Both the position numbers and the translations under genes were made by a program. The notes beneath the pieces are model-generated. The model searched no databases. It was not told where the DNA came from and worked only from the letters and a program-made list of their open reading frames with translations. DNA of 64,000 nt from an uncultured virus (IMG/VR IMGVR_UViG_3300025084_000015) (taxonomy: Duplodnaviria > Heunggongvirae > Uroviricota > Caudoviricetes), in IMG/VR virus record IMGVR_UViG_3300025084_000015, one strand, 5' to 3'. Positions 35,126 to 43,876 of the stretch are shown piece after piece. Positions within the stretch are counted from its first letter, which is position 1, and each line of letters opens with the position of its first letter.

Positions 35126-36322
35126 CTAAATGAAAGATTCAATGGTTTGAACATTTTCCTCAAATTCTATTGTTTGTTTTTTATTATCAGCGATAGCAAA
35201 ATCTGCTTCACGACTATTTAATTTTCCATTGAGCCAATCTTTAATACCTAACGCCATGTCTGTAGCTGTAGTAACAGGAACATTTTGACAAATCATATTA
35301 AGATTTCTTTTTCCTCCTTGAAGTTGAAACTCTTTTGGCATTTTCATAATCGCTAAACACTCACGAATAGTAAGATATCTATCTTTATGTGGGTGTGTAA
35401 GACATGTTGGCATATGACCAACGAAAGCACCAATGTAATCCTTAGGTATTTCGGTTAATTTGCGCATAACGTTTCCTCCAGCTTTTAGCTTTTTATGAAC
35501 CTGCAAGCATCTTTCTGCTTTTTTAGGATAACCATTGTCTTCCATCCAAACCGCAACTTTATCATATTCTATACCATGTTTTTCTATATAATCCATAGGA
35601 TTAATAGTTTTTTCAATCTTATCAAAAAATTGTCTATGAGTAATACCGCCTTCAATTTCTTCTAAAACATATTTGTAAAAAGGATTTTCTGTTGGTTTAC
35701 CAGTGTTTGTCAACTTATTCATAGGATCATCATCAGACACAAATGAATTTATAATAGTATCTTCAATTCTTTCGTGTGGACGATGATAAAAAGGCATATA
35801 TGGAATTCTTTTTCCTTTCCAGAAAAAGTAAAAAGATCTGTCCCTAGTTTGGCTTAGGCCGTGAAGTTTTGATTTTGTTTTATATAAGAGAAGAGTATAA
35901 CCATTTTCTTTTGCTACATCTCTTAATTTTTTTACGATAGGACCACCCATTTTTGAAGCAAGACGAGGAGCGTTTTCTCCCCAAAAAACTTTAGGTTTAA
36001 CTTTACCTAAAACGTATTTTGCAGATTCAACCATCCAATCGTTTGCTTTATTATCTATAGAAGCTGATGGACTAAGTGAAGATAACCCAGCACATGGACA
36101 TACAGCGTTTACTACATCCACATAACTTTTCTTTTCATCACCTTGATCAATTAAATAATATGGAACTTCATTATTATAATGATTTAAAAGTTGTGAGTCG
36201 TTGTCTTGAAAAGGCGAATACGATAAAATATACTCAGGTCTTTTTTCAAAGGCGTTTTCCATTGCGATTGTTTCACCACCTATAAGTGGAACGCACGAAG
36301 CGTAATTATATTTGTTTTTCAT
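35126..36322 (-). CDS. DNA cytosine-C5 methyltransferase-like protein with atypical motif I
   Basis: CPCAGLS (motif IV), GENAP (VI), QTRDR (VIII), RYLTIRECLAIM (IX), QNVPV (X); motif I reads PLIGG. Confidence 0.75.
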   Translation of the reverse strand: MKNKYNYASCVPLIGGETIAMENAFEKRPEYILSYSPFQDNDSQLLNHYNNEVPYYLIDQGDEKKSYVDVVNAVCPCAGLSSLSPSASIDNKANDWMVESAKYVLGKVKPKVFWGENAPRLASKMGGPIVKKLRDVAKENGYTLLLYKTKSKLHGLSQTRDRSFYFFWKGKRIPYMPFYHRPHERIEDTIINSFVSDDDPMNKLTNTGKPTENPFYKYVLEEIEGGITHRQFFDKIEKTINPMDYIEKHGIEYDKVAVWMEDNGYPKKAERCLQVHKKLKAGGNVMRKLTEIPKDYIGAFVGHMPTCLTHPHKDRYLTIRECLAIMKMPKEFQLQGGKRNLNMICQNVPVTTATDMALGIKDWLNGKLNSREADFAIADNKKQTIEFEENVQTIESFI

Positions 36323-36323
36323 T

Positions 36324-37559
36324 TTATGCAAAAAATTCTTCGATGTTTATAATACGATTAGTTTCTTTATTTGTTTTTTTCACTTTATTAAAGAAATCAT
36401 TAAACGATGAATCAGGCGAATTATGAGAATAATAGTACTCATATGCTTTATGTCTCCATTCATCACGCATTACAGAATCTTTTCTTAATTGATTAATTAA
36501 CTCCATATTTTGTGCGTGATCTGAGCCAACTTCTCCTAGCCAAATTGTTCCATTATCGTTATCAGCAGTCATTGCATTACCAGTTTGCAAATGATAGCAA
36601 TGATCGCCATAAGACTTTCTAAATATTGGAATGCATCCAGCCGCAACAATTTCTAAGTGAGTAAATTCAATAAAATTTTGAATGTATTCAGGCTGAAGAT
36701 ATGTTAGCTGAAAACCAAAGGCGCATTTAGATAATCTTTCAAGCATTTCAGTGTATTTGTATGCTGAAAACACATATGGCTTAGTGTCGTATTCTAAATT
36801 AAAACCAAAGTCGCTGTCTGGATGATGAAAATCGTATTTTTTGCGTATATCTACAAACTGAATTGATCGTTCCATTCCTTCTAACGTAAAAAGAAAACCT
36901 TGGTTTTTTGCGTTGTTTTCATATAAATCAAAAAGAACATCAAATCCTTTCCAATACGCACTACGGCCGATCCATTTTAAATGATTTTCATCTTGCTCTT
37001 CAATTGATTTCCAATACTCATTTTTAATTGTTGAAATGTCAATCCCATTACAAAAATTGTGTAGCGCTGCGTTTGTTCCAACAGTTCTGCAATAATTCAT
37101 AAAAGGACTCTTTGTAGAATAAGAGAATATAACATCAGCCTTTTTAATTGTTTCGTCGAGGACTGCATTCCTACGGATTGACATCATTTTATGATCATGT
37201 TGAATCATAACAACTTTAGTATCAATACTGCTAATAAGCTTACTAAAGTTTTCAATACAATCATCTGGATGCCCTTTCGATGGTAGCGAACCGATAATTA
37301 CCATATCAGCATCTTTTGCATCTTCAATGATATTATCAACGCCGCAAACACTATCACCTCTAGAAGGTTTATTGCCAAATTTTTGTTCAATTACGTTTTC
37401 TCCTAAAATGTGGGATTTAGCCCGAGTCCAACGCTTATCTTTAGTTGCATAAATTTTATAATCCCATCCCTTAGATAAGGCCCAATTTTTTATTTCTAAT
37501 GTAAATCGTGTTACACCGCAACCTTCAATCCCTCTGCCTAATATATGTATTATTTTCAT
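36324..37559 (-). CDS. agt: DNA alpha-glucosyltransferase homolog (T4 Agt-like)
   Basis: GRGIEGCGVT, KDKRWTRAKSH, QHDH, WIGRSAYWKG, EFTHLEIVAAGCIPIF match T4 Agt motifs. Confidence 0.85.
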   Translation of the reverse strand: MKIIHILGRGIEGCGVTRFTLEIKNWALSKGWDYKIYATKDKRWTRAKSHILGENVIEQKFGNKPSRGDSVCGVDNIIEDAKDADMVIIGSLPSKGHPDDCIENFSKLISSIDTKVVMIQHDHKMMSIRRNAVLDETIKKADVIFSYSTKSPFMNYCRTVGTNAALHNFCNGIDISTIKNEYWKSIEEQDENHLKWIGRSAYWKGFDVLFDLYENNAKNQGFLFTLEGMERSIQFVDIRKKYDFHHPDSDFGFNLEYDTKPYVFSAYKYTEMLERLSKCAFGFQLTYLQPEYIQNFIEFTHLEIVAAGCIPIFRKSYGDHCYHLQTGNAMTADNDNGTIWLGEVGSDHAQNMELINQLRKDSVMRDEWRHKAYEYYYSHNSPDSSFNDFFNKVKKTNKETNRIINIEEFFA

Positions 37560-37939: not shown

Positions 37940-38365
37940 TCAATTTTGTAAAACAAATTGTTTCTTATTTTTATTCCAATAGTAAATGCCGTGGAGGCTA
38001 TAGTCTGCAGTCACCTTGTCTCCGATAAAAATATATAGAATATCCGGGTATTCTCTCCACGCGTCTTGACGAGCACGGTTGGCTCTCTTTAAAACATACG
38101 GAACGTAATAGTCACCTTCAGTTACTTTTACTTCTACAAAACTATTCTCCGCATCAATAACGTCTTTATATTTTCTAGTATCATCAGTAAATCCCATTTC
38201 TTTTATAAGAAATACTTCAGGAGCATGGCCGTACAAAGTTGTTTCTAAAATTTGGTTGAATGACCTTTTTAAACGGGTACTTGTCTTTGAAAAGATTTCG
38301 GCCGCCTCTGCCTTAGCTCGAGCGAGATAAAAATCGCTATCTAGTTGAGATGCGTTAAACTTCAT
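37940..38365 (-). CDS. Hypothetical protein, possible PD-(D/E)XK nuclease fold
   Basis: GHAPE...KDVID...VEVK. Confidence 0.5.
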   Translation of the reverse strand: MKFNASQLDSDFYLARAKAEAAEIFSKTSTRLKRSFNQILETTLYGHAPEVFLIKEMGFTDDTRKYKDVIDAENSFVEVKVTEGDYYVPYVLKRANRARQDAWREYPDILYIFIGDKVTADYSLHGIYYWNKNKKQFVLQN

Positions 38366-39093
38366 GAGTCACCCATCGATGATTGAGCAAGAGATTGAAC
38401 TTCATCAGCCTTTTTTCTTGCTTCGATTTCCTTATCAATAAACTTGAAATGGCGTTCGTATACGTGTAAAGATCCTACTTGCCAAGTAATGTCACCGGCT
38501 GAATAAGTATTTTCACCAAAATCATTTAGATCTTTTACTAGACGATCAAGGACAAACTTTTGCCAGGCATAATCATTTCTGTAACCAAACACAACATCAT
38601 TTGATCGCATTTGAACAACAGCATGAAGAGCGTTGTCACGGACCATATATTGTACAGCGTTAGTGCAAATGAAATCAGACATACCATCAACACTAAAATC
38701 GTCATGCATAGTAGGTCTTTGGTAAATCATAACAGCTCTTCGTGAATTTGGATCACATAAGAGTTGCTGGCATACGTGGTTGTATTGCTTATGGTTTTCT
38801 TTACTAAAGATCAGCTGACCGTAATTAGAATTAATCTTGCCTTTTGTCGATGATATCTGTTTCCATATTTCAGGCGTTTTTTCAGGAATGTCATACACAT
38901 AAAGACTTTCGCTAAGATACCAATCAATTTCTCTTTTGATATACTCATTATTAGGAGTACCGAATATTGATACTTCATCAGCAGTAAAAGATGCACCAAC
39001 AATTTCAAGTGTTTTTACACCTGTTTTATCGGTAACGTATTTTTCTGTGTTATATAGATCAATAAACAGATCGCGGATATCCTTAGTTTGCAT
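38362..39093 (-). CDS. 42: dCMP hydroxymethylase (T4 gp42-like)
   Basis: REIDWY, INSNYG, SRRA, DFICTN, MRSNDVVFGYRNDYAWQ (Asp in the dCMP-specificity position), SLHVYERH. Confidence 0.9.
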   Translation of the reverse strand: MQTKDIRDLFIDLYNTEKYVTDKTGVKTLEIVGASFTADEVSIFGTPNNEYIKREIDWYLSESLYVYDIPEKTPEIWKQISSTKGKINSNYGQLIFSKENHKQYNHVCQQLLCDPNSRRAVMIYQRPTMHDDFSVDGMSDFICTNAVQYMVRDNALHAVVQMRSNDVVFGYRNDYAWQKFVLDRLVKDLNDFGENTYSAGDITWQVGSLHVYERHFKFIDKEIEARKKADEVQSLAQSSMGDS

Positions 39094-39582: not shown

Positions 39583-40206
39583 TTAAATAATTTTGTGCCA
39601 ACTTTTTAGTGTGTGTTTAAAGGGATTGCCTTCAATAAGCATAACACAGTTAAGCATTTTTTCAGCGATTTCTCTAATCTCCTTTTGCGCGTGTTGGCTT
39701 TTACGCAGTTTAATAAAATTGGCGAAAGAACGTAAATTAAATTGTACATCTGCTTGGATGCGGCTATTGTAAGTCTTAAAGAAGCGGGCAGATTCTTTTG
39801 CTCGTTTACGTCCTAGTGTATCAGTCAATTCACCGACACACTGATGGTAAAGCTCATTCCCTTTTTGTGTATAAGACACTAACATTTCCTGCCAAAATGC
39901 TGGCCAATCTTCAGGAACAAACATTTTATCCTCTTTTAGTTCTTTGTATCGTGCCGACTCTGCATTAAGCGAAGATAATCTATGCTTAAGTAAATGAATA
40001 TGAGAGGCGATATCACAATCAATAAGAAAATGAACGCTGCATTTTTCAAAAGGGGTTTCGTGTCCCTCGCTCCAAAGCATGTTGAGGAGCTCCGGAATTC
40101 TTTTTCGTTTTTCTTCATTCAGTTTTCTTGATGTTGATGTCCAAGCGCTGCACGCAATTGTTTCATCTGATCCATAATGTCCTAATAACTCTACTGTGTT
40201 CTCCAT
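39583..40206 (-). CDS. thyX: FAD-dependent thymidylate synthase
   Basis: GHETPFE, LKHRLSSLNAESARY, ESARFF, NLRSFANFIKLR, HAQKEIR. Confidence 0.92.
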   Translation of the reverse strand: MENTVELLGHYGSDETIACSAWTSTSRKLNEEKRKRIPELLNMLWSEGHETPFEKCSVHFLIDCDIASHIHLLKHRLSSLNAESARYKELKEDKMFVPEDWPAFWQEMLVSYTQKGNELYHQCVGELTDTLGRKRAKESARFFKTYNSRIQADVQFNLRSFANFIKLRKSQHAQKEIREIAEKMLNCVMLIEGNPFKHTLKSWHKII

Positions 40207-41058: not shown

Positions 41059-41268
41059 TTAAAGCCAAGATTGGCATCGGTTCTCATCGTGTTCTTTTAA
41101 GGCCTTCTTAAGTTTATCTCTGACGACCACGTCATCGCGGGAATCCATATATCCAAGGAGCCAACAAAGCTCGTCTCTTAATAGTTGAGCGGCATTACGT
41201 TCCTCTAAGAATTTATCGTAATCTGTTTTTTCTTTAGTTATTGTGGCAAGTGGTTTTTCAGTTTTCAT
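41059..41268 (-). CDS. Hypothetical early protein
   Basis: Follows promoter TTTACA 41325..41320 / TAGAAT 41302..41297. Confidence 0.6.
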   Translation of the reverse strand: MKTEKPLATITKEKTDYDKFLEERNAAQLLRDELCWLLGYMDSRDDVVVRDKLKKALKEHDENRCQSWL

Positions 41269-41333
41269 TGTGGTAGTCTTTTTTGATTCTGAATATATTC
41301 TACCATAAAAAATGGCAGTTGTAAATACTTTTT

Positions 41334-41543
41334 TTACATAAAGTTTGCTTTTTTATTATCATACGATCCATATTTCTCAATAAAGTTTGTAGTGTCTACT
41401 GGGCAATATTTTTCACGTAACCTCATCATGACTTTCCAAATAGGAAGTGCTATAGAATCGTCCGGTTCACTTTCGATCTCGCGGATGAGATCTTGGATTA
41501 CTTCCTCGACAATAGCCGATTTGATTTGATTTGATTTTTTCAT
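41334..41543 (-). CDS. Hypothetical protein
   Basis: 69-aa ORF. Confidence 0.55.
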   Translation of the reverse strand: MKKSNQIKSAIVEEVIQDLIREIESEPDDSIALPIWKVMMRLREKYCPVDTTNFIEKYGSYDNKKANFM

Positions 41544-41627
41544 AATATATTTTTTTTACTCCCACCTAGCCTCCCCCTTTCAGGTTGTAGGCGTGAAGTC
41601 TTTGACGCCTCGTTAATTGCTAGGAGC

Positions 41628-41751
41628 AGGCCCGGGCAGGATTCGAACCTGCATTCCCTCTATAGACGCTAGCTAGCGCGCATCACAGTAAAGTGCACTT
41701 TACTGATTTGGGTATAATATAGATGGGTCTTACCTGTTAAATGACCGGGCC
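41628..41751 (-). ncRNA. tRNA-like RNA A (124 nt) with expanded anticodon arm
   Basis: Acceptor GGCCCGG/CCGGGCC, D loop with GG, T arm GCAGG TTCGAAT CCTGC; 53-nt insert in place of anticodon loop. Confidence 0.7.
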
Positions 41752-41870
41752 GTATTTTGTTTTGTGTTTTCCTAAAGTTGAGGGTCTTTCTCTGAGGGCA
41801 CCCTTACTCCCACAATAGTTCATTATTTTACGTCTTATTCTATCGCTTAACCGTGTTTATACTCACTTGA

Positions 41871-42077
41871 CTAATCTGTTATAATGCTTTTAACTTGGCT
41901 AATATGGTAACCGTTTATTGATCCCATGAATTCAAGTTGAAACCATCCATTCGCATCCAACCGCTTGATAACACCTTCTGCGGAAAGGGATTCATCAATA
42001 GGATCAAATGGTTTGAGCGAGACGAAAACATGCTCACCTGAATCAATGTAGTTTCTAATCATTTTTTCTTTTAACAT
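41871..42077 (-). CDS. Hypothetical protein
   Basis: 68-aa ORF. Confidence 0.55.
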   Translation of the reverse strand: MLKEKMIRNYIDSGEHVFVSLKPFDPIDESLSAEGVIKRLDANGWFQLEFMGSINGYHISQVKSIITD

Positions 42078-42313
42078 AATAAAATTTATTTTAGAGCTCG
42101 ATAAAGTTACTCAAATCAATGGTGTGAACAATTGAAGACTCAGCTTTACGACGCATAAGATCTACATCAACTTTAAAATTCTCAGATGCCTCTTTGACAA
42201 GCATGTGTAGCTCCTCCCGCGGGGGTGGGGAGTTCAGGAGGTGGTTTTTAATCCAAGTTAGTCCGTTCTCTAGTTTTTTGTTTTCTTTCATGATGTAATA
42301 TAGTTGAGTTCCT

Positions 42314-42553
42314 TTAGCTGTAGAGTTTAGCGAGATCATTTGGGACAACATCCTTACCTCTGTAAATAGCTTGCTTAAGTTTAGTCTGATGCTTCCATAA
42401 GCTATCAAGCTGATCATTAAGATCAGCACAACCGCTACAAGCTCTATCACTATCTAATGCTTCAAGAACCTTAAGCTTATCAGTAAAGCAGTTCATAAGC
42501 TCATCCATATGCTCCAACACTTGCTTCTTCTGCTCGTTATTATTTTCTTTCAT
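42314..42553 (-). CDS. Hypothetical early protein (CxxC)
   Basis: First ORF after promoter cassette at 42560..42680. Confidence 0.55.
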   Translation of the reverse strand: MKENNNEQKKQVLEHMDELMNCFTDKLKVLEALDSDRACSGCADLNDQLDSLWKHQTKLKQAIYRGKDVVPNDLAKLYS

Positions 42554-42559
42554 AACTAA

Positions 42560-42680
42560 TATACTTTCTTCCTTGATTCTGATTATATTCTACCACACGA
42601 TGGGTAGTTTGTAAATACTTTTTTTACTAAAAATAGGCTTTTTTTGGTGTTCATCTGATTACTGGTGTTCATCTGATTAC
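42560..42680 (-). promoter_or_regulatory. Repeated early promoter cassette with 18-bp tandem repeat of degenerate TGTTC-N4-GAACA box
   Basis: TTTACA 42615..42610, TAGAAT 42592..42587; TGTTC-ATCT-GATTA at 42648..42661 and 42666..42679. Confidence 0.75.
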
Positions 42681-42691
42681 TTATGGGAAAT

Positions 42692-42805
42692 TGGCTGCTC
42701 TAAAAGGAATTGCACCTTTATTTTTCTCGCCCGAACCATTGGGGTTTCGGTGACTTATGGTTGAAGAGGTCGTGGAGAATGTTTTACTTTTTAAACTATA
42801 GAGCT
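42692..42805 (-). ncRNA. tRNA-like RNA B (114 nt) with expanded anticodon arm and encoded CCA
   Basis: GCTCTA/TAGAGC acceptor, D stem GTTT/AAAC, TTCTC/GAGAA stem with 46-nt insert, T arm AAAGG TGCAATT CCTTT, 3' GCCA; own promoter upstream, no ORF. Confidence 0.65.
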
Positions 42806-42814
42806 TTTATTAAG

Positions 42815-42914
42815 GGGTTTTCCTTGATTCTGATTATATTCTACCACAAAAAATGACCACTGTAAATACTTTTTTACTAAATAATAGCACTTTTTTTAAT
42901 TTGTATTACAGATT
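42815..42914 (-). promoter_or_regulatory. Repeated early promoter cassette driving tRNA-like RNA B
   Basis: TTTACA 42866..42861, TAGAAT 42843..42838; near-palindrome AATCTGTAATACAAATT 42914..42898. Confidence 0.75.
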
Positions 42915-42937
42915 TAAGTCATTTTTGTATAAAACTG

Positions 42938-43876
42938 CTAAAAAGATACACTTTTGACTGCAAAATCTATGGCTCGAGCAGCTTCAAGTTTTACTGGTCT
43001 ACCACGATACCACCCTCCATTTTCGTTGTCAATTTCTCTAACAAGTGATTCAACCTCGTTAGGTGTGATAGGATATTTTCTACGAATAGCATTAGCAGCA
43101 ATACTCATCATTATTCGATACATGTGATGATACCAACCAGATTCATTAATTGTCATATACTCAGTAACAAGCTGCTTGTTAACAAAAGGACAATCGCGAT
43201 AAGATGACCATTTAATATTTGTATTTGTCAACTTGCTTTCATAGTGCTTTTTCAACTCTTTTTGAATTGCTTCAGGTAAATGATCACTTAATGAATTTCC
43301 TGAATTTTCTACAAAATCATATTTTGCCATTAGTTTTACCGGATCAAGAAATGGTCCTTCATGTGTAAAAATAAAGTTATACGCATTAGGATATTGTGCT
43401 GGAACATAATACATGCGCGAAAGATCTTTGGTTTGCGGATCACCAAGTGAATTGTATTCTTTATTTAACGCAAACCAAAGATGTTTAATCTTATCAGCTT
43501 TTACTTCTTCTGTGAGCGGGAAGACAATTCTGAATTTTGGTTTTTCTTTCGATGAAGATGCAGAGCTATAGCACACGAATCGATGACCTTTAAAGGCTTC
43601 GATCGTTTCTTCGAACGTAGAATCATATTCATCAATGTCAAGGGCAACCCAACTAGCCCACGAAATAACATTCCTATTAGCGCGAGTCGTGCCCCCATCA
43701 TAGGTAGCTGGTGTAATAAGCGGCGAGCCATCTTTTCTTTCTCCTTTCTTTGGTTTATAACCAGGCTGTTTGCTCAAAGAATATAACAAGTCTTCAAAAC
43801 CTTTCCAATCTTGGAAGGCCATTTTTCGATGTGTTTTATTATCGAAAATAGAATTGAATATTGTGAGCGAATACAT
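42938..43876 (-). CDS. Archaeo-eukaryotic-type primase (AEP/PrimPol-like)
   Basis: WVALDIDE, YSSASS...PKFRIVFPL, DPQTKDLSRMYY; helical C-terminal domain. Confidence 0.7.
   Translation of the reverse strand: MYSLTIFNSIFDNKTHRKMAFQDWKGFEDLLYSLSKQPGYKPKKGERKDGSPLITPATYDGGTTRANRNVISWASWVALDIDEYDSTFEETIEAFKGHRFVCYSSASSSKEKPKFRIVFPLTEEVKADKIKHLWFALNKEYNSLGDPQTKDLSRMYYVPAQYPNAYNFIFTHEGPFLDPVKLMAKYDFVENSGNSLSDHLPEAIQKELKKHYESKLTNTNIKWSSYRDCPFVNKQLVTEYMTINESGWYHHMYRIMMSIAANAIRRKYPITPNEVESLVREIDNENGGWYRGRPVKLEAARAIDFAVKSVSF

What the first reader, a model, noticed from the sequence alone, without database searches (positions are those of the whole stretch)
41628..41751. tRNA-shaped RNA A: anticodon loop replaced by a 53-nt double-palindrome insert
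Seen (minus strand): perfect 7-bp acceptor GGCCCGG/CCGGGCC, D loop containing GG, canonical T arm GCAGG-TTCGAAT-CCTGC, but the anticodon stem is extended (CCCATCTATA/TATAGAGGG) and closes 53 nt carrying a perfect 20-bp palindrome CAGTAAAGTGCACTTTACTG and a 12-bp palindrome CGCTAGCTAGCG; no encoded CCA. Too short for tmRNA or a group I intron. Established: T4 makes two stable tRNA-like RNAs (bands C and D) of unknown function. Inference: a tRNA mimic, e.g. decoy for anticodon nucleases/tRNA-targeting defences, a T-box/RelA/synthetase ligand, or an RNase P/Z-processed scaffold.
Basis: partly seen in the sequence, partly recalled or inferred. Interest (0 to 1): 0.82.

Follow-up and report, generated by a model that had tools for sequence, protein, structure and literature searches.

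The report
Anticodon-less phage tRNA mimic, swappable arm
This is a real, conserved gene of uncultured marine T4-like phages for an RNA shaped like a tRNA that cannot read codons, is always fused to a second small folded RNA, and carries here an optional two-hairpin module whose job, like that of the whole RNA, is still unknown.

Summary
It is not a decaying tRNA. I found 39 distinct relatives in viral and marine metagenome contigs. They keep the acceptor, D and T arms with compensatory changes (98.5% of cells paired, 11 of 35 pairs changed on both sides, 0 of 500 shuffles as good).

No Rfam family and no ARAGORN mode calls it.

The 53-nt insert is not what defines the RNA. The family has three states:
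- a 65-nt form whose "anticodon" stem ends in a UAUA tetraloop (6 of 39);
- the window's two-hairpin insert, flanked by a TCTATA direct repeat (16 of 39);
- an unrelated insert with an invariant GACG loop (17 of 39).

All 39 are followed directly by a nearly invariant 72-nt three-way-junction RNA.

In all 16 window-type copies both hairpin tips are self-complementary, with six different loops. G.U pairs place the hairpins in the sense-strand RNA.

Best reading: a non-decoding tRNA mimic that host tRNA-processing enzymes cut out of early phage transcripts, with a dispensable peripheral arm. Its function is untested. The scan met this family before on another genome.

The parts
41629..41751 (-). 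tRNA-shaped RNA (123 nt; the discriminator U is at 41628): acceptor, D and T arms, a long 'anticodon' arm, no anticodon loop, no CCA
   Evidence: Sequence; fold; model R1 at 140.5 bits; covariation
41745..41751 (-). Acceptor stem, 5' strand GGCCCGG. It pairs with 41629-41635 (CCGGGCC).
   Evidence: Pair 7-66 is G-C in 11, G.U in 18 and A-U in 10 of 39 members.
41727..41742 (-). D arm: 3-bp stem UUU/AGA and a loop with A14, A15, G18, G19
   Evidence: The D stem covaries: UA/AU and UA/CG changes, 100% of cells paired. L105, L136 and L145 have GACU/AGUC.
41636..41652 (-). T arm GCAGG-UUCGAAU-CCUGC
   Evidence: It is invariant among relatives, but my search patterns fixed it, so that invariance carries no weight.
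41656..41727 (-). Extended 'anticodon' arm: stem CCC-A-UCUAUA / UAUAGA-GGG closing the 53-nt insert
   Evidence: Five of 9 stem pairs show compensatory change within the 16 type-A copies.
41665..41717 (-). 53-nt insert of type A: a 12-nt single strand, hairpin 1, a linker, hairpin 2. It is optional in the family.
   Evidence: Absent in 6 of 39 distinct relatives and replaced by another module in 17 of 39. Its conserved pattern occurs once in IMG/VR.
41686..41705 (-). Hairpin 1: CAGUAAAG-UGCA-CUUUACUG, a perfect 20-nt palindrome in this copy
   Evidence: Relatives keep the helix through G.U pairs on this strand (4, 2, 7 and 10 of 16 at four pairs). The tip is UGCA in 8 and GUAC in 8 of 16.
41667..41678 (-). 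Hairpin 2: CGCU-AGCU-AGCG, a 12-nt palindrome
   Evidence: The closing pair is U-A in 13 and A-U in 3 of 16. The loop is AGCU in 10, CCGG in 4, CGCG in 1 and CAUG in 1 of 16, always self-complementary.
41718..41723 (-). TCTATA, 5' copy of the 6-nt direct repeat that flanks the insert. The 3' copy is at 41661-41666.
   Evidence: Short forms carry a single TCTATA at this place.
41557..41628 (-). Partner RNA, 72 nt, directly after the acceptor stem: a three-way junction with P1 CCUAGC/GCUAGG, P2 AGGCGU/ACGCCU and P3 CCU-GAAA-GGG. It is nearly invariant.
   Evidence: Present in 39 of 39 members. Six of its 15 pairs show compensatory change, mainly in L021, L114 and L132.
41781..41872 (-). Upstream conserved RNA element of about 92 nt (GUCAAGUGAGUAUAAACACGGUUAAGCGA ... 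GGG..GCCCUC..). It looks pseudoknotted and is a separate module.
   Evidence: 32 distinct copies, also in another phage group directly after a 66-nt mini-tmRNA. Pair support is weak: 98.4% paired, but only 2 of 17 pairs have compensatory change.
41871..42077 (-). 68-aa ORF with an Sm/Hfq-like predicted fold. It is often, though not always, next to the RNA module.
   Evidence: AlphaFold2 pLDDT 90.7 for the best model, a helix plus five strands. Top Foldseek hits are Hfq (TM 0.75, rmsd 1.9 A) but the E-value is only 8.6e-3. It lies within the held DNA in 19 of 39 members.
42587..42615 (-). Promoter-like site TTTACA-17-TAGAAT with TG, the nearest one upstream on the coding strand. The next such site is at 41297-41325.
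   Evidence: The same motif is repeated at 11 further places in the nearest record, G001. No terminator-like site lies in 41200-42950.

Best explanation
The locus encodes a non-decoding tRNA mimic.

Shown:
- The RNA keeps what a tRNA needs to fold into an L. It has a 7-bp acceptor stem and a D stem. It also has U8, A14, A15 with a U before the T stem, G18 G19, and a UUCRA T loop.
- It has no anticodon loop and no CCA.
- It is conserved with compensatory changes in uncultured marine T4-like phages.
- It is always fused at its 3' side to a nearly invariant 72-nt three-way-junction RNA.
- Its 'anticodon' arm exists in three interchangeable states, of which the window has the two-hairpin state.

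Inferred:
- The RNA is transcribed on early-type phage transcripts. Either it has a GGAACT..TATAAT promoter-like site of its own, or, as in the window, it rides in a longer unit.
- Host RNase P then cuts at G1, behind the conserved AAAAUAY leader. A tRNA 3' endonuclease cuts after U73.
- The tRNA body therefore makes itself a stable small RNA and also gives the partner RNA a defined 5' end. MHV68 tRNA-miRNA transcripts, mascRNA and bacterial 3'ETS sRNAs work in this way (recalled, not checked here).
- Selection acts on the top half of the tRNA shape (acceptor, T arm, elbow) and on the partner RNA.
- The arm module is peripheral and dispensable. It probably serves RNA-RNA or RNA-protein contacts.

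The confidence given is for the whole statement. That it is a real, conserved, non-decoding tRNA-shaped RNA gene I hold at about 0.9. The processing mechanism I hold at about 0.5.
For: The family and its structure:
- 39 distinct members (6 short, 16 type A, 17 type B) came from IMG/VR and marine metagenome contigs.
- Core structure: 98.5% of 1354 cells paired, 11 of 35 pairs with compensatory change, 0 of 500 shuffles as good; slid controls pair at 33-54%.
- Type-A arm and hairpins: 97.4% paired, 10 of 51 pairs compensatory, 0 of 500 shuffles.
- G.U pairs in hairpin 1 on the sense strand would be A.C on the other strand.
- The flanking 68-aa protein is only 51-57% identical in loci where the RNA region is nearly unchanged.

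Transcription and processing context:
- The leader AAAAUAY lies directly 5' of G1 in 39 of 39 members. A promoter-like GGAACT..TATAAT lies within 50 nt upstream in 18 of 39.
- The partner RNA starts right after the discriminator in 39 of 39.
- The module sits behind at least five different upstream ORF contexts.
- In the window it lies between two TTTACA-17-TAGAAT sites with no terminator-like site.
- The phage's four real tRNAs all encode CCA, and this RNA does not.

The insert is optional:
- Short forms differ by 1-3 of 109 shared columns from insert-bearing copies. That is less than they differ from each other.

Transcripts (weak):
- Metatranscriptome contigs of relatives from 4 runs cover 41547-41871.
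- One 298-nt contig spans a whole type-A copy plus its partner.
- One contig carries an insert-less form.
Against: - No end mapping exists. The RNA evidence is contigs of relatives from RNA libraries. These cannot show ends or strand, and may contain carried-over DNA.
- Cleavage by RNase P or a 3' endonuclease is inferred from shape alone.
- UGCU after the acceptor stem can pair with AGUA at the end of the partner RNA. The two RNAs may therefore stay joined as one molecule of about 195 nt.
- Two lineages have an acceptor-stem mismatch: L132 at pair 4-69 and L145 at pair 2-71.
- The invariance of the T arm and of the 3' acceptor strand is partly imposed by my search patterns.
- The function of the mimic and of its partner is unknown.
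- The strict self-complementarity of the hairpin tips is not explained by a mere 'peripheral arm'.
Confidence: 0.55

Rival explanations
1. Decoy or sponge. The mimic works by occupying a host or phage factor that reads the top half of tRNAs. Candidates are RNase P, the CCA-adding enzyme, elbow-binding factors, or acceptor-end-targeting defence toxins. Release of the partner RNA would be secondary.
For: The conservation pattern favours the acceptor, elbow and T arm, while the anticodon arm may be lost or swapped. A second, unrelated anticodon-less tRNA-shaped RNA lies 950 nt away. This phage group is therefore rich in tRNA mimics.
Against: No candidate target was identified. No CCA is encoded and the 3' end is occupied by the partner RNA. 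Nothing in the 45 ORFs scanned, of 91 listed, points to a tRNA-directed system.
Confidence: 0.2
2. The insert is a small selfish DNA element, or a DNA-level palindrome, that landed in the tetraloop of an existing tRNA mimic. On this reading the palindromes act in DNA, as a protein site or cruciform, and not in RNA.
For: A 6-nt direct repeat TCTATA flanks the insert and is single in insert-less relatives. Presence or absence varies among near-identical backbones. All tips are perfect DNA palindromes.
Against: The conserved insert pattern occurs only once in IMG/VR, in the tRNA mimic itself. The nearest record G001 holds no other copy. Hairpin 1 keeps pairing through G.U on one strand only, and both hairpins and the extended stem show compensatory changes, which points to RNA-level selection. 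Slippage between the two TCTATA copies explains the short forms equally well.
Confidence: 0.12
3. It is an intron-containing tRNA. The insert is spliced out and a decoding tRNA results.
For: The insert sits where tRNA introns sit.
Against: Removing the insert leaves a 5-bp stem with a 4-nt loop, and natural insert-less relatives have exactly that. So no 7-nt anticodon loop can form. ARAGORN in intron mode calls nothing. At 53 nt it is far too short for a group I intron. I see no bulge-helix-bulge in the stem; it has a single bulged A.
Confidence: 0.03
4. It is a decaying tRNA pseudogene, or a tRNA gene disrupted by an insertion.
For: No tRNA finder calls it. There is no anticodon and no CCA.
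Against: It is conserved across 39 distinct members with compensatory changes, while the neighbouring protein has diverged to 51-57% identity.
Confidence: 0.02
5. It is a reduced tmRNA (tRNA-like domain only) that binds SmpB and is charged with alanine.
For: The topology is tmRNA-like: acceptor, a long stem in place of the anticodon arm, then the T arm. Cultured relatives carry two-piece tmRNAs. Relatives and another phage group carry 62-66-nt mini-tmRNA domains.
Against: Pair 3-70 is C-G in 39 of 39, not G.U. The discriminator is U and there is no CCA. A real D stem is present. The Rfam tmRNA model gives no hit up to E = 10 in 41400-42000. The true mini-tmRNA occurs as a separate gene beside this RNA in L129.
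Confidence: 0.02

Closest known systems
Phage T4 RNAC and RNAD (species 1 and 2 stable RNAs of the tRNA cluster)
   Same: Both are small RNAs encoded by a T4-type phage beside tRNA genes, of unknown role (passages in PMC3014915 and PMC9697503). T4 rnaC ends in a tRNA-type T arm, CCGGGUUCGAAUCCCGG.
   Different: No homology is detectable. Model R1 scores rnaC at 6.0 bits, E 0.17, on the T arm only. RNAC is 139 nt with long rod-like arms. The present RNA keeps a full acceptor, D and T set and has a fixed partner RNA. PMC9697503 classes RNAC and RNAD as late, whereas this RNA lies behind early-type promoter-like sites.
tmRNA tRNA-like domain and mini-tmRNAs
   Same: Both are tRNA-shaped with no anticodon and a long helix where the anticodon arm would be. 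Both occur in the same phage clade.
   Different: This RNA has no G3.U70, no ACCA end and no tag frame, and it does have a D stem. It does not match Rfam tmRNA.
YrlA-type Y RNAs (Rfam RF02553), bacterial and phage tRNA mimics bound by Ro
   Same: Both are non-coding RNAs with a tRNA-like module in bacteria and phages. An actinophage contig (L010) with a Ro-like ORF shares the exact 24-nt T arm plus acceptor strand.
   Different: In YrlA the RNA ends lie in the Ro-binding stem and not in the acceptor stem (recalled). The Rfam score is 15.6 bits against a cut-off of 69. No TROVE/Ro domain appears among the 45 window ORFs scanned.
tRNA-like elements that release a neighbouring RNA: MHV68 tRNA-miRNA transcripts, MALAT1-mascRNA, bacterial 3'ETS sRNAs, and the engineered 'tRNA scaffold' for expressing RNAs in the anticodon arm (all recalled, none read here)
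   Same: A tRNA-shaped body is fused to another functional RNA, or carries a payload in its anticodon arm. It is expected to be cut by RNase P and a 3' endonuclease.
   Different: Those cases are eukaryotic, herpesviral, cellular or artificial. No phage case with a fixed three-way-junction partner is known to me, and processing is untested here.
RNA self-association signals: HIV-1 DIS loop, MoMuLV GACG tetraloops, phi29 pRNA loops (recalled)
   Same: These also show exposed self-complementary loop sequences. Here there are palindromic tetraloops in 16 of 16 type-A copies. Type B has an invariant GACG tetraloop in 12 of 12 and an A-flanked UGCUAGCA in 8 of 12.
   Different: No dimer has been shown here. 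Four-nucleotide loops are small for kissing contacts. The in-silico dimer energies did not differ from those of ordinary tRNAs.

Membership tests
tRNA (Rfam RF00005) | Cloverleaf with a 5-bp anticodon stem and 7-nt anticodon loop; score at or above the family cut-off | tested here: not met
   The Rfam tRNA model matches only the T arm, 14.9 bits against 29. ARAGORN makes no call with or without introns. The arm is a 9-bp stem plus 53 nt here and a 5-bp stem plus 4-nt loop in short relatives.
tRNA (Rfam RF00005) | Acceptor, D and T arms with the tertiary-contact nucleotides (U8, A14, G18 G19, T-loop UUCRA) | tested here: met
   Sequence. These columns are invariant or covarying in 39 members. 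The T arm and 3' acceptor strand were fixed by the search pattern.
tRNA (Rfam RF00005) | 3' CCA end and aminoacylation | not testable with these tools
   CCA is not encoded (UGCUCC follows the stem). The four real tRNAs of the window do encode it. Post-transcriptional addition and charging cannot be tested here.
tmRNA | G3.U70 alanine identity pair, discriminator A plus CCA, tag reading frame, match to an Rfam tmRNA model | tested here: not met
   Pair 3-70 is C-G in 39 of 39. The discriminator is U and there is no CCA. No tmRNA hit appears up to E = 10 in 41400-42000 or up to E = 0.1 in the whole window.
YrlA / Y RNA | Match to RF02553; a Ro (TROVE) protein gene in the genome | tested here: not met
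   15.6 bits against a cut-off of 69, E 2.6. No TROVE domain appears in the 45 of 91 window ORFs scanned. The rest of the genome is not held.
Intron-bearing tRNA (group I or bulge-helix-bulge type) | Removal of the insert restores a 7-nt anticodon loop; intron of group I size or a bulge-helix-bulge at the splice sites | tested here: not met
   Natural insert-less relatives have a 4-nt loop. The insert is 53 nt. The stem has one bulged A. ARAGORN -i gives nothing.
T4 RNAC/RNAD-type phage stable RNAs | Sequence or structure homology to T4 rnaC or rnaD | tested here: not met
   R1 with filters off on T4 70300-72800 scores rnaC at 6.0 bits, E 0.17, T arm only. The better hits are the true tRNAs.
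T4 RNAC/RNAD-type phage stable RNAs | Accumulates as a discrete, stable small RNA during infection | not testable with these tools
   Only contigs from four RNA libraries of relatives are available. They cannot show ends or abundance.
Mobile mini-element (MITE-like) for the 53-nt insert | Several dispersed copies; target-site duplication | tested here: inconclusive
   A 6-nt direct repeat is present. But there is one hit only in IMG/VR for the conserved insert pattern and no second copy in G001.

The most novel reading that the evidence does not exclude
The swappable arm modules may be RNA self-association devices.

- Every one of the 16 distinct type-A copies has self-complementary tetraloops on both hairpins. 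Six different loops occur: UGCA, GUAC, AGCU, CCGG, CGCG and CAUG. If loops were free to vary, about one in sixteen would be self-complementary.
- The other insert type has an invariant GACG tetraloop. In 8 of 12 copies it also has an A-flanked 8-nt palindrome in a large loop.
- The tRNA-shaped RNAs would then pair tip to tip into dimers or longer assemblies, as retroviral dimer-initiation sites and phi29 pRNA do. This might happen on the ring of the neighbouring Sm/Hfq-like protein.

That would make this a new kind of phage ribonucleoprotein built on a tRNA body.
Probability: 0.15. Interest if true: 0.85.

Novelty: new variant of a known kind. Interest (0 to 1): 0.62.

Why it matters
Phage tRNA-like stable RNAs have been known since T4 RNAs C and D, and no function has yet been found for them (PMC3014915). 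This family offers material that T4 never did:
- dozens of natural variants;
- a minimal 65-nt form;
- two alternative arm modules;
- a fixed partner RNA;
- a frequent Sm/Hfq-like neighbour.

These give clear, testable predictions: where RNase P cuts, whether the partner RNA is released, and whether the palindromic tips make dimers.

It also shows that abundant marine T4-like phages, whose nearest cultured relatives infect SAR11 and OM43, carry a whole island of tRNA-shaped and other structured RNAs. Standard annotation misses all of it.

Tried and rejected
- **Related DNA in cultured phages.** blastn of the 800-nt region against 50,697 phage records gave no match. Model R1 found nothing in Melnitz, HTVC008M or Mosig beyond a tRNA-Arg.
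- **Downstream ORF.** A search for relatives of the 69-aa ORF gave no confirmed relative.
- **In-silico dimerisation.** RNAcofold favoured dimers for the window RNA (-16.9 kcal/mol relative to two monomers). It did the same for the insert-less form (-15.5) and for ordinary tRNAs (-8.3 and -11.7). The test does not discriminate.
- **Upstream element as a glutamine riboswitch.** Melnitz has a true glnA-type motif after its tmRNA. The window's upstream element has no such Rfam hit.
- **Partner RNA as a known ribozyme.** I considered the hammerhead, HDV-like and other self-cleaving classes. The junction sequences do not fit by eye, and Rfam gives no hit.
- **Promoter scan.** Six sites were found against 5.6 expected by chance. 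Only the three identical minus-strand sites, repeated through G001, carry weight.
- **Type-B inner stem.** The middle pairs of hairpin B2 are broken in the L013 group; the helix is 83% paired.
- **Sm-like ORF.** Pfam gave nothing for the window's own protein and only weak rows, E 0.015 or worse, for other members.
- **Self-association of the Sm-like protein.** Complex prediction was never accepted because its queue was full, so there is no result.
- **Flanking ORFs in RNA-library contigs.** Lack of cover over them may simply reflect divergence of the relatives.
Full report
**1. The observation.**
- The acceptor stem GGCCCGG/CCGGGCC has 7 perfect pairs.
- The D arm is short, with GG in its loop.
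- The T arm is GCAGG-UUCGAAU-CCUGC.
- A 9-bp stem with one bulged A (CCCAUCUAUA/UAUAGAGGG) closes 53 nt.
- Those 53 nt hold a perfect 20-nt palindrome and a 12-nt palindrome.
- U and then GCUCC follow the acceptor stem, so no CCA is encoded.

The minimum-free-energy fold gives this shape, with z = -2.99 and 1 of 200 shuffles as good. ARAGORN with and without introns, and Rfam at gathering scores, do not call it. At permissive thresholds the tRNA model matches only the T arm (14.9 bits) and YrlA reaches 15.6 bits against a cut-off of 69.

**2. Setting.**
- The window is a T4-like myovirus with 35% G+C and all genes on the minus strand. Pfam finds the portal, protease, scaffold and gp23, also UvsY, UvsW, gp46/47, gp45, gp44, RegA, Hsp20 and gp43.
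- By major capsid protein the nearest cultured phages are Pelagibacter phage HTVC008M (60%) and Methylophilales phage Melnitz (58%).
- The RNA lies in a 327-nt gap between ORFs 41871-42077 and 41334-41543.
- Three identical promoter-like sites, TTTACA-17-TAGAAT with TG, lie on the coding strand at 42866-42838, 42615-42587 and 41325-41297. No terminator-like site lies between them.
- That promoter-like motif recurs at 11 further places in the nearest held record, G001.
- The RNA therefore sits inside an early-type transcription unit, behind two small ORFs.

**3. Relatives.**
- DNA search of cultured phages found nothing.
- Relatives of the upstream 68-aa protein in IMG/VR gave 8 loci. One of them (L012) ends at its contig edge before the tRNA-like RNA. 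In 6 of the other 7 the whole intergenic region is almost unchanged. The protein is only 51-57% identical in 6 of the 8.
- Pattern scans of IMG/VR and of marine metagenome contigs added more. In one search, 10 of 15 loci belong to the family. In one search, 48 of 49 do; the other is a chance hit in high-G+C DNA.
- After removing duplicates there are 39 distinct sequences of the tRNA-like RNA plus its 3' neighbour.
- My patterns fixed the T arm, the 3' acceptor strand and the first bases of the neighbour. The invariance of those parts therefore carries no weight.

**4. Three states of one RNA.**
- Short form, 65-66 nt, 6 of 39. The 'anticodon' arm is a 5-bp stem capped by UAUA, for example CCUUC-UAUA-GAGGG.
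- Type A, 121-126 nt, 16 of 39 including the window. The two-hairpin insert lies between two copies of TCTATA, and the short form has one copy. Because UAUA is self-complementary, the duplication lengthens the stem.
- Type B, 96-110 nt, 17 of 39. This is a different insert.

No state has a 7-nt anticodon loop. Over 109 shared columns, the short forms L133, L138 and L104 differ by 1-3 positions from insert-bearing copies. These three differ from one another by 4 or more. Presence or absence of the insert is therefore polymorphic among near-identical backbones. Repeated slippage between the TCTATA copies, repeated insertion, or recombination would each explain this. The conserved insert pattern occurs once in IMG/VR, in this RNA itself, so I see no sign of a dispersed mobile element.

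**5. Structure tests.**
- A covariance model from the six short forms (R1) finds the window copy at 140.5 bits and all 39 members.
- On that alignment 98.5% of 1354 cells pair and 11 of 35 pairs have compensatory changes. None of 500 shuffles reaches any of the five measures, and slid controls pair at 33-54%. This alignment is fitted to the model, so it leans towards the structure.
- The independent MAFFT alignment of the 16 type-A copies gives 97.4% paired. Ten of 51 pairs are compensatory and 0 of 500 shuffles reach that number of pairs.
- Notable pairs: acceptor 7-66 is G-C in 11, G.U in 18 and A-U in 10. The D stem is UCU/AGA, UUU/AGA or GACU/AGUC. The first and third arm pairs switch between C-G and A-U or U-A.
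- Hairpin 1 holds G.U pairs at four positions on this strand, in 4, 2, 7 and 10 of 16 copies. These would be A.C on the other strand. The hairpins are therefore selected in the sense-strand RNA, not as double-stranded DNA palindromes. The perfect 20-bp symmetry of the window is the extreme case; relatives have 6-12 bp.

**6. The self-complementary tips.**
- In 16 of 16 type-A copies both tetraloops are self-complementary.
- Hairpin 1 has UGCA in 8 and GUAC in 8. Hairpin 2 has AGCU in 10, CCGG in 4, CGCG in 1 and CAUG in 1.
- One tetranucleotide in sixteen is self-complementary, and a hairpin does not need this property.
- In type B the second hairpin has an invariant GACG tetraloop (12 of 12). 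Its stem varies but is only 83% paired. In 8 of 12 the first hairpin's large loop shows UGCUAGCA flanked by A's.
- Two causes remain open: selection for pairing between molecules, or templated 'perfecting' of hairpins during DNA replication.
- A cofold calculation did not separate these RNAs from ordinary tRNAs.

**7. The neighbours.**
- Directly after the discriminator, all 39 members carry a 72-nt RNA (41628-41557). It forms a three-way junction with P1 CCUAGC/GCUAGG, P2 AGGCGU/ACGCCU and P3 CCY-loop-GGG. Its junction and loop sequences are nearly invariant.
- Six of its 15 pairs show compensatory changes, mainly in L021, L114 and L132.
- Directly 5' of G1 all 39 have AAAAUAY. Eighteen have a GGAACT..TATAAT promoter-like site within 50 nt, and the window does not.
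- The pair of RNAs follows at least five different upstream ORF contexts, so it behaves as a portable cassette.
- An upstream element of about 92 nt (41872-41781) lies within 330 nt in 17 of 39 members.
- In another phage group the same element follows a 66-nt mini-tmRNA with G3.U70 and ACCA (Rfam tmRNA 43.5 bits, cut-off 47). There are 32 distinct copies, and pair support is weak because most columns never vary.
- The 68-aa ORF upstream folds as a helix plus five strands. The best model has pLDDT 90.7; the other four have 61-73.
- Its best structural matches are Hfq proteins, with TM 0.75 and rmsd 1.9 A. No match reaches E 0.001.
- This ORF lies in the held DNA of 19 of 39 members.
- A second, unrelated anticodon-less tRNA-shaped RNA lies at 42695-42805. 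It scores 38.7 bits on the tRNA model and has a 45-nt insert and its own promoter-like site. Seven IMG/VR loci match its T arm; one is from the contig that also carries the window's own tRNA-like sequence, and the others show covariation in the insert.

**8. Expression.** Four marine RNA-library runs hold contigs of relatives over 41547-41871.
- One 298-nt contig spans a type-A copy and its partner.
- One contig carries an insert-less form: it skips 61 nt.
- One contig replaces 112 nt by 109 others, which fits a type-B relative.

These are contigs. They show presence in RNA libraries, not ends, strand or level, and carried-over DNA is not excluded.

**9. What it is.** I read it as a non-decoding tRNA mimic whose selected parts are the acceptor, the elbow and the T arm, together with the partner RNA. 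The arm module is peripheral.
- The most likely mechanism, which is inferred, is processing by the host tRNA machinery. RNase P would cut behind AAAAUAY and an endonuclease would cut after U73.
- This would stabilise the mimic and release the partner RNA with a defined 5' end.
- A decoy role for factors that bind the top half of tRNAs is compatible with this and remains the main rival.
- The pseudogene, spliced-tRNA and tmRNA readings fail specific tests; see the membership table.

**10. Comparison and novelty.**
- T4 RNAC and RNAD are the nearest in kind: phage small RNAs of the tRNA region with unknown role (passages read in PMC3014915 and PMC9697503). They are not homologous by my model.
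- Cultured relatives carry two-piece tmRNAs, and Melnitz also has a glutamine riboswitch (passages in PMC9004378). They lack this RNA.
- Three of my five searches of the held papers were aimed at this family or at phage RNAs of its kind. The terms covered tRNA-like RNAs with Hfq or Sm-like proteins in phages, tRNA-like phage RNAs lacking an anticodon, and pelagimyophage with tRNA-like. None found a description of this family.
- An earlier report of this scan, on another genome, describes the same family and its invariant partner. My results agree with it and add five things: the insert-less form, the direct repeat, the rule of self-complementary tips, the type-B GACG loop and the Sm-like neighbour.

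Noticed in passing
window 42695-42805 (-): A second tRNA-shaped RNA without an anticodon. The Rfam tRNA model scores it at 38.7 bits, above the cut-off of 29, but only the permissive scan found it. A 45-nt structured insert replaces the anticodon loop. Its own TTTACA-17-TAGAAT site lies at 42866-42838. Seven IMG/VR loci match its T arm; one is from the contig that also holds the window's own RNA, and the others keep RNA B with compensatory changes in the insert (GAC/GUC to GGC/GCC; CCG/CGG to CUG/CAG).
   Followed up: partly
window 41781-41872 (-); also L019, L025, L029, L043, L047, L066, L083 and others: A conserved RNA element of about 92 nt with a likely 3' pseudoknot: GGG..CCC plus a second stem that differs between groups (AGGGU/ACCCU, UGGCAUA/UAUGCCA, UAGCUA/UAGCUA). 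There are 32 distinct copies. In another phage group it directly follows a mini-tmRNA. No Rfam match.
   Followed up: partly
L019 636-701 (-), L029/L049 515-580 (+), L057; L129 (about 150 nt upstream of its tRNA mimic): Mini-tmRNAs of 62-66 nt. They keep only the tRNA-like domain (G3.U70, ACCA end, tmRNA-type D loop) with the long stem closed by a short loop. Rfam tmRNA gives 43.5 bits against a cut-off of 47. There is no tag-coding part.
   Followed up: partly
window 41871-42077 (-): A 68-aa ORF with a predicted Sm/Hfq-like fold, with no Pfam family for the window's own protein. It neighbours the RNA island in many relatives: 17 upstream and 2 downstream of 39.
   Followed up: partly
L013-L018, L110, L125 and others, just upstream of many small ORFs and of the tRNA mimic: A recurrent promoter-like motif AAGGAACT-N5-TATAAT. 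It is often only about 5 nt from an ATG, which suggests nearly leaderless mRNAs in this phage clade. The window's own units use TTTACA-17-TAGAAT instead.
   Followed up: no
L136 and L145, 100-330 nt upstream of their tRNA mimic: A further structured stretch with a T arm (GCGGGUUCGAAUCCCGU) followed by GGGCCGCUGAUUCUCGG, which recalls a tmRNA 5' end. It may be a permuted tmRNA. I did not analyse it.
   Followed up: no
L010 (IMG/VR contig, high G+C): An actinophage-like contig with several tRNA-like RNAs in a row, followed by an ORF that looks like a Ro/TROVE protein by eye. This would be a likely YrlA-Ro locus. It shares the exact 24-nt T arm plus acceptor strand with the window RNA, which I take to be convergence on tRNA features.
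   Followed up: no
window 36324-37559, 35126-36331, 38362-39093, 39583-40206 (-): A DNA alpha-glucosyltransferase, a C5-cytosine methylase, a thymidylate-synthase-like protein and ThyX lie together. This suggests modified DNA bases in this phage.
   Followed up: no
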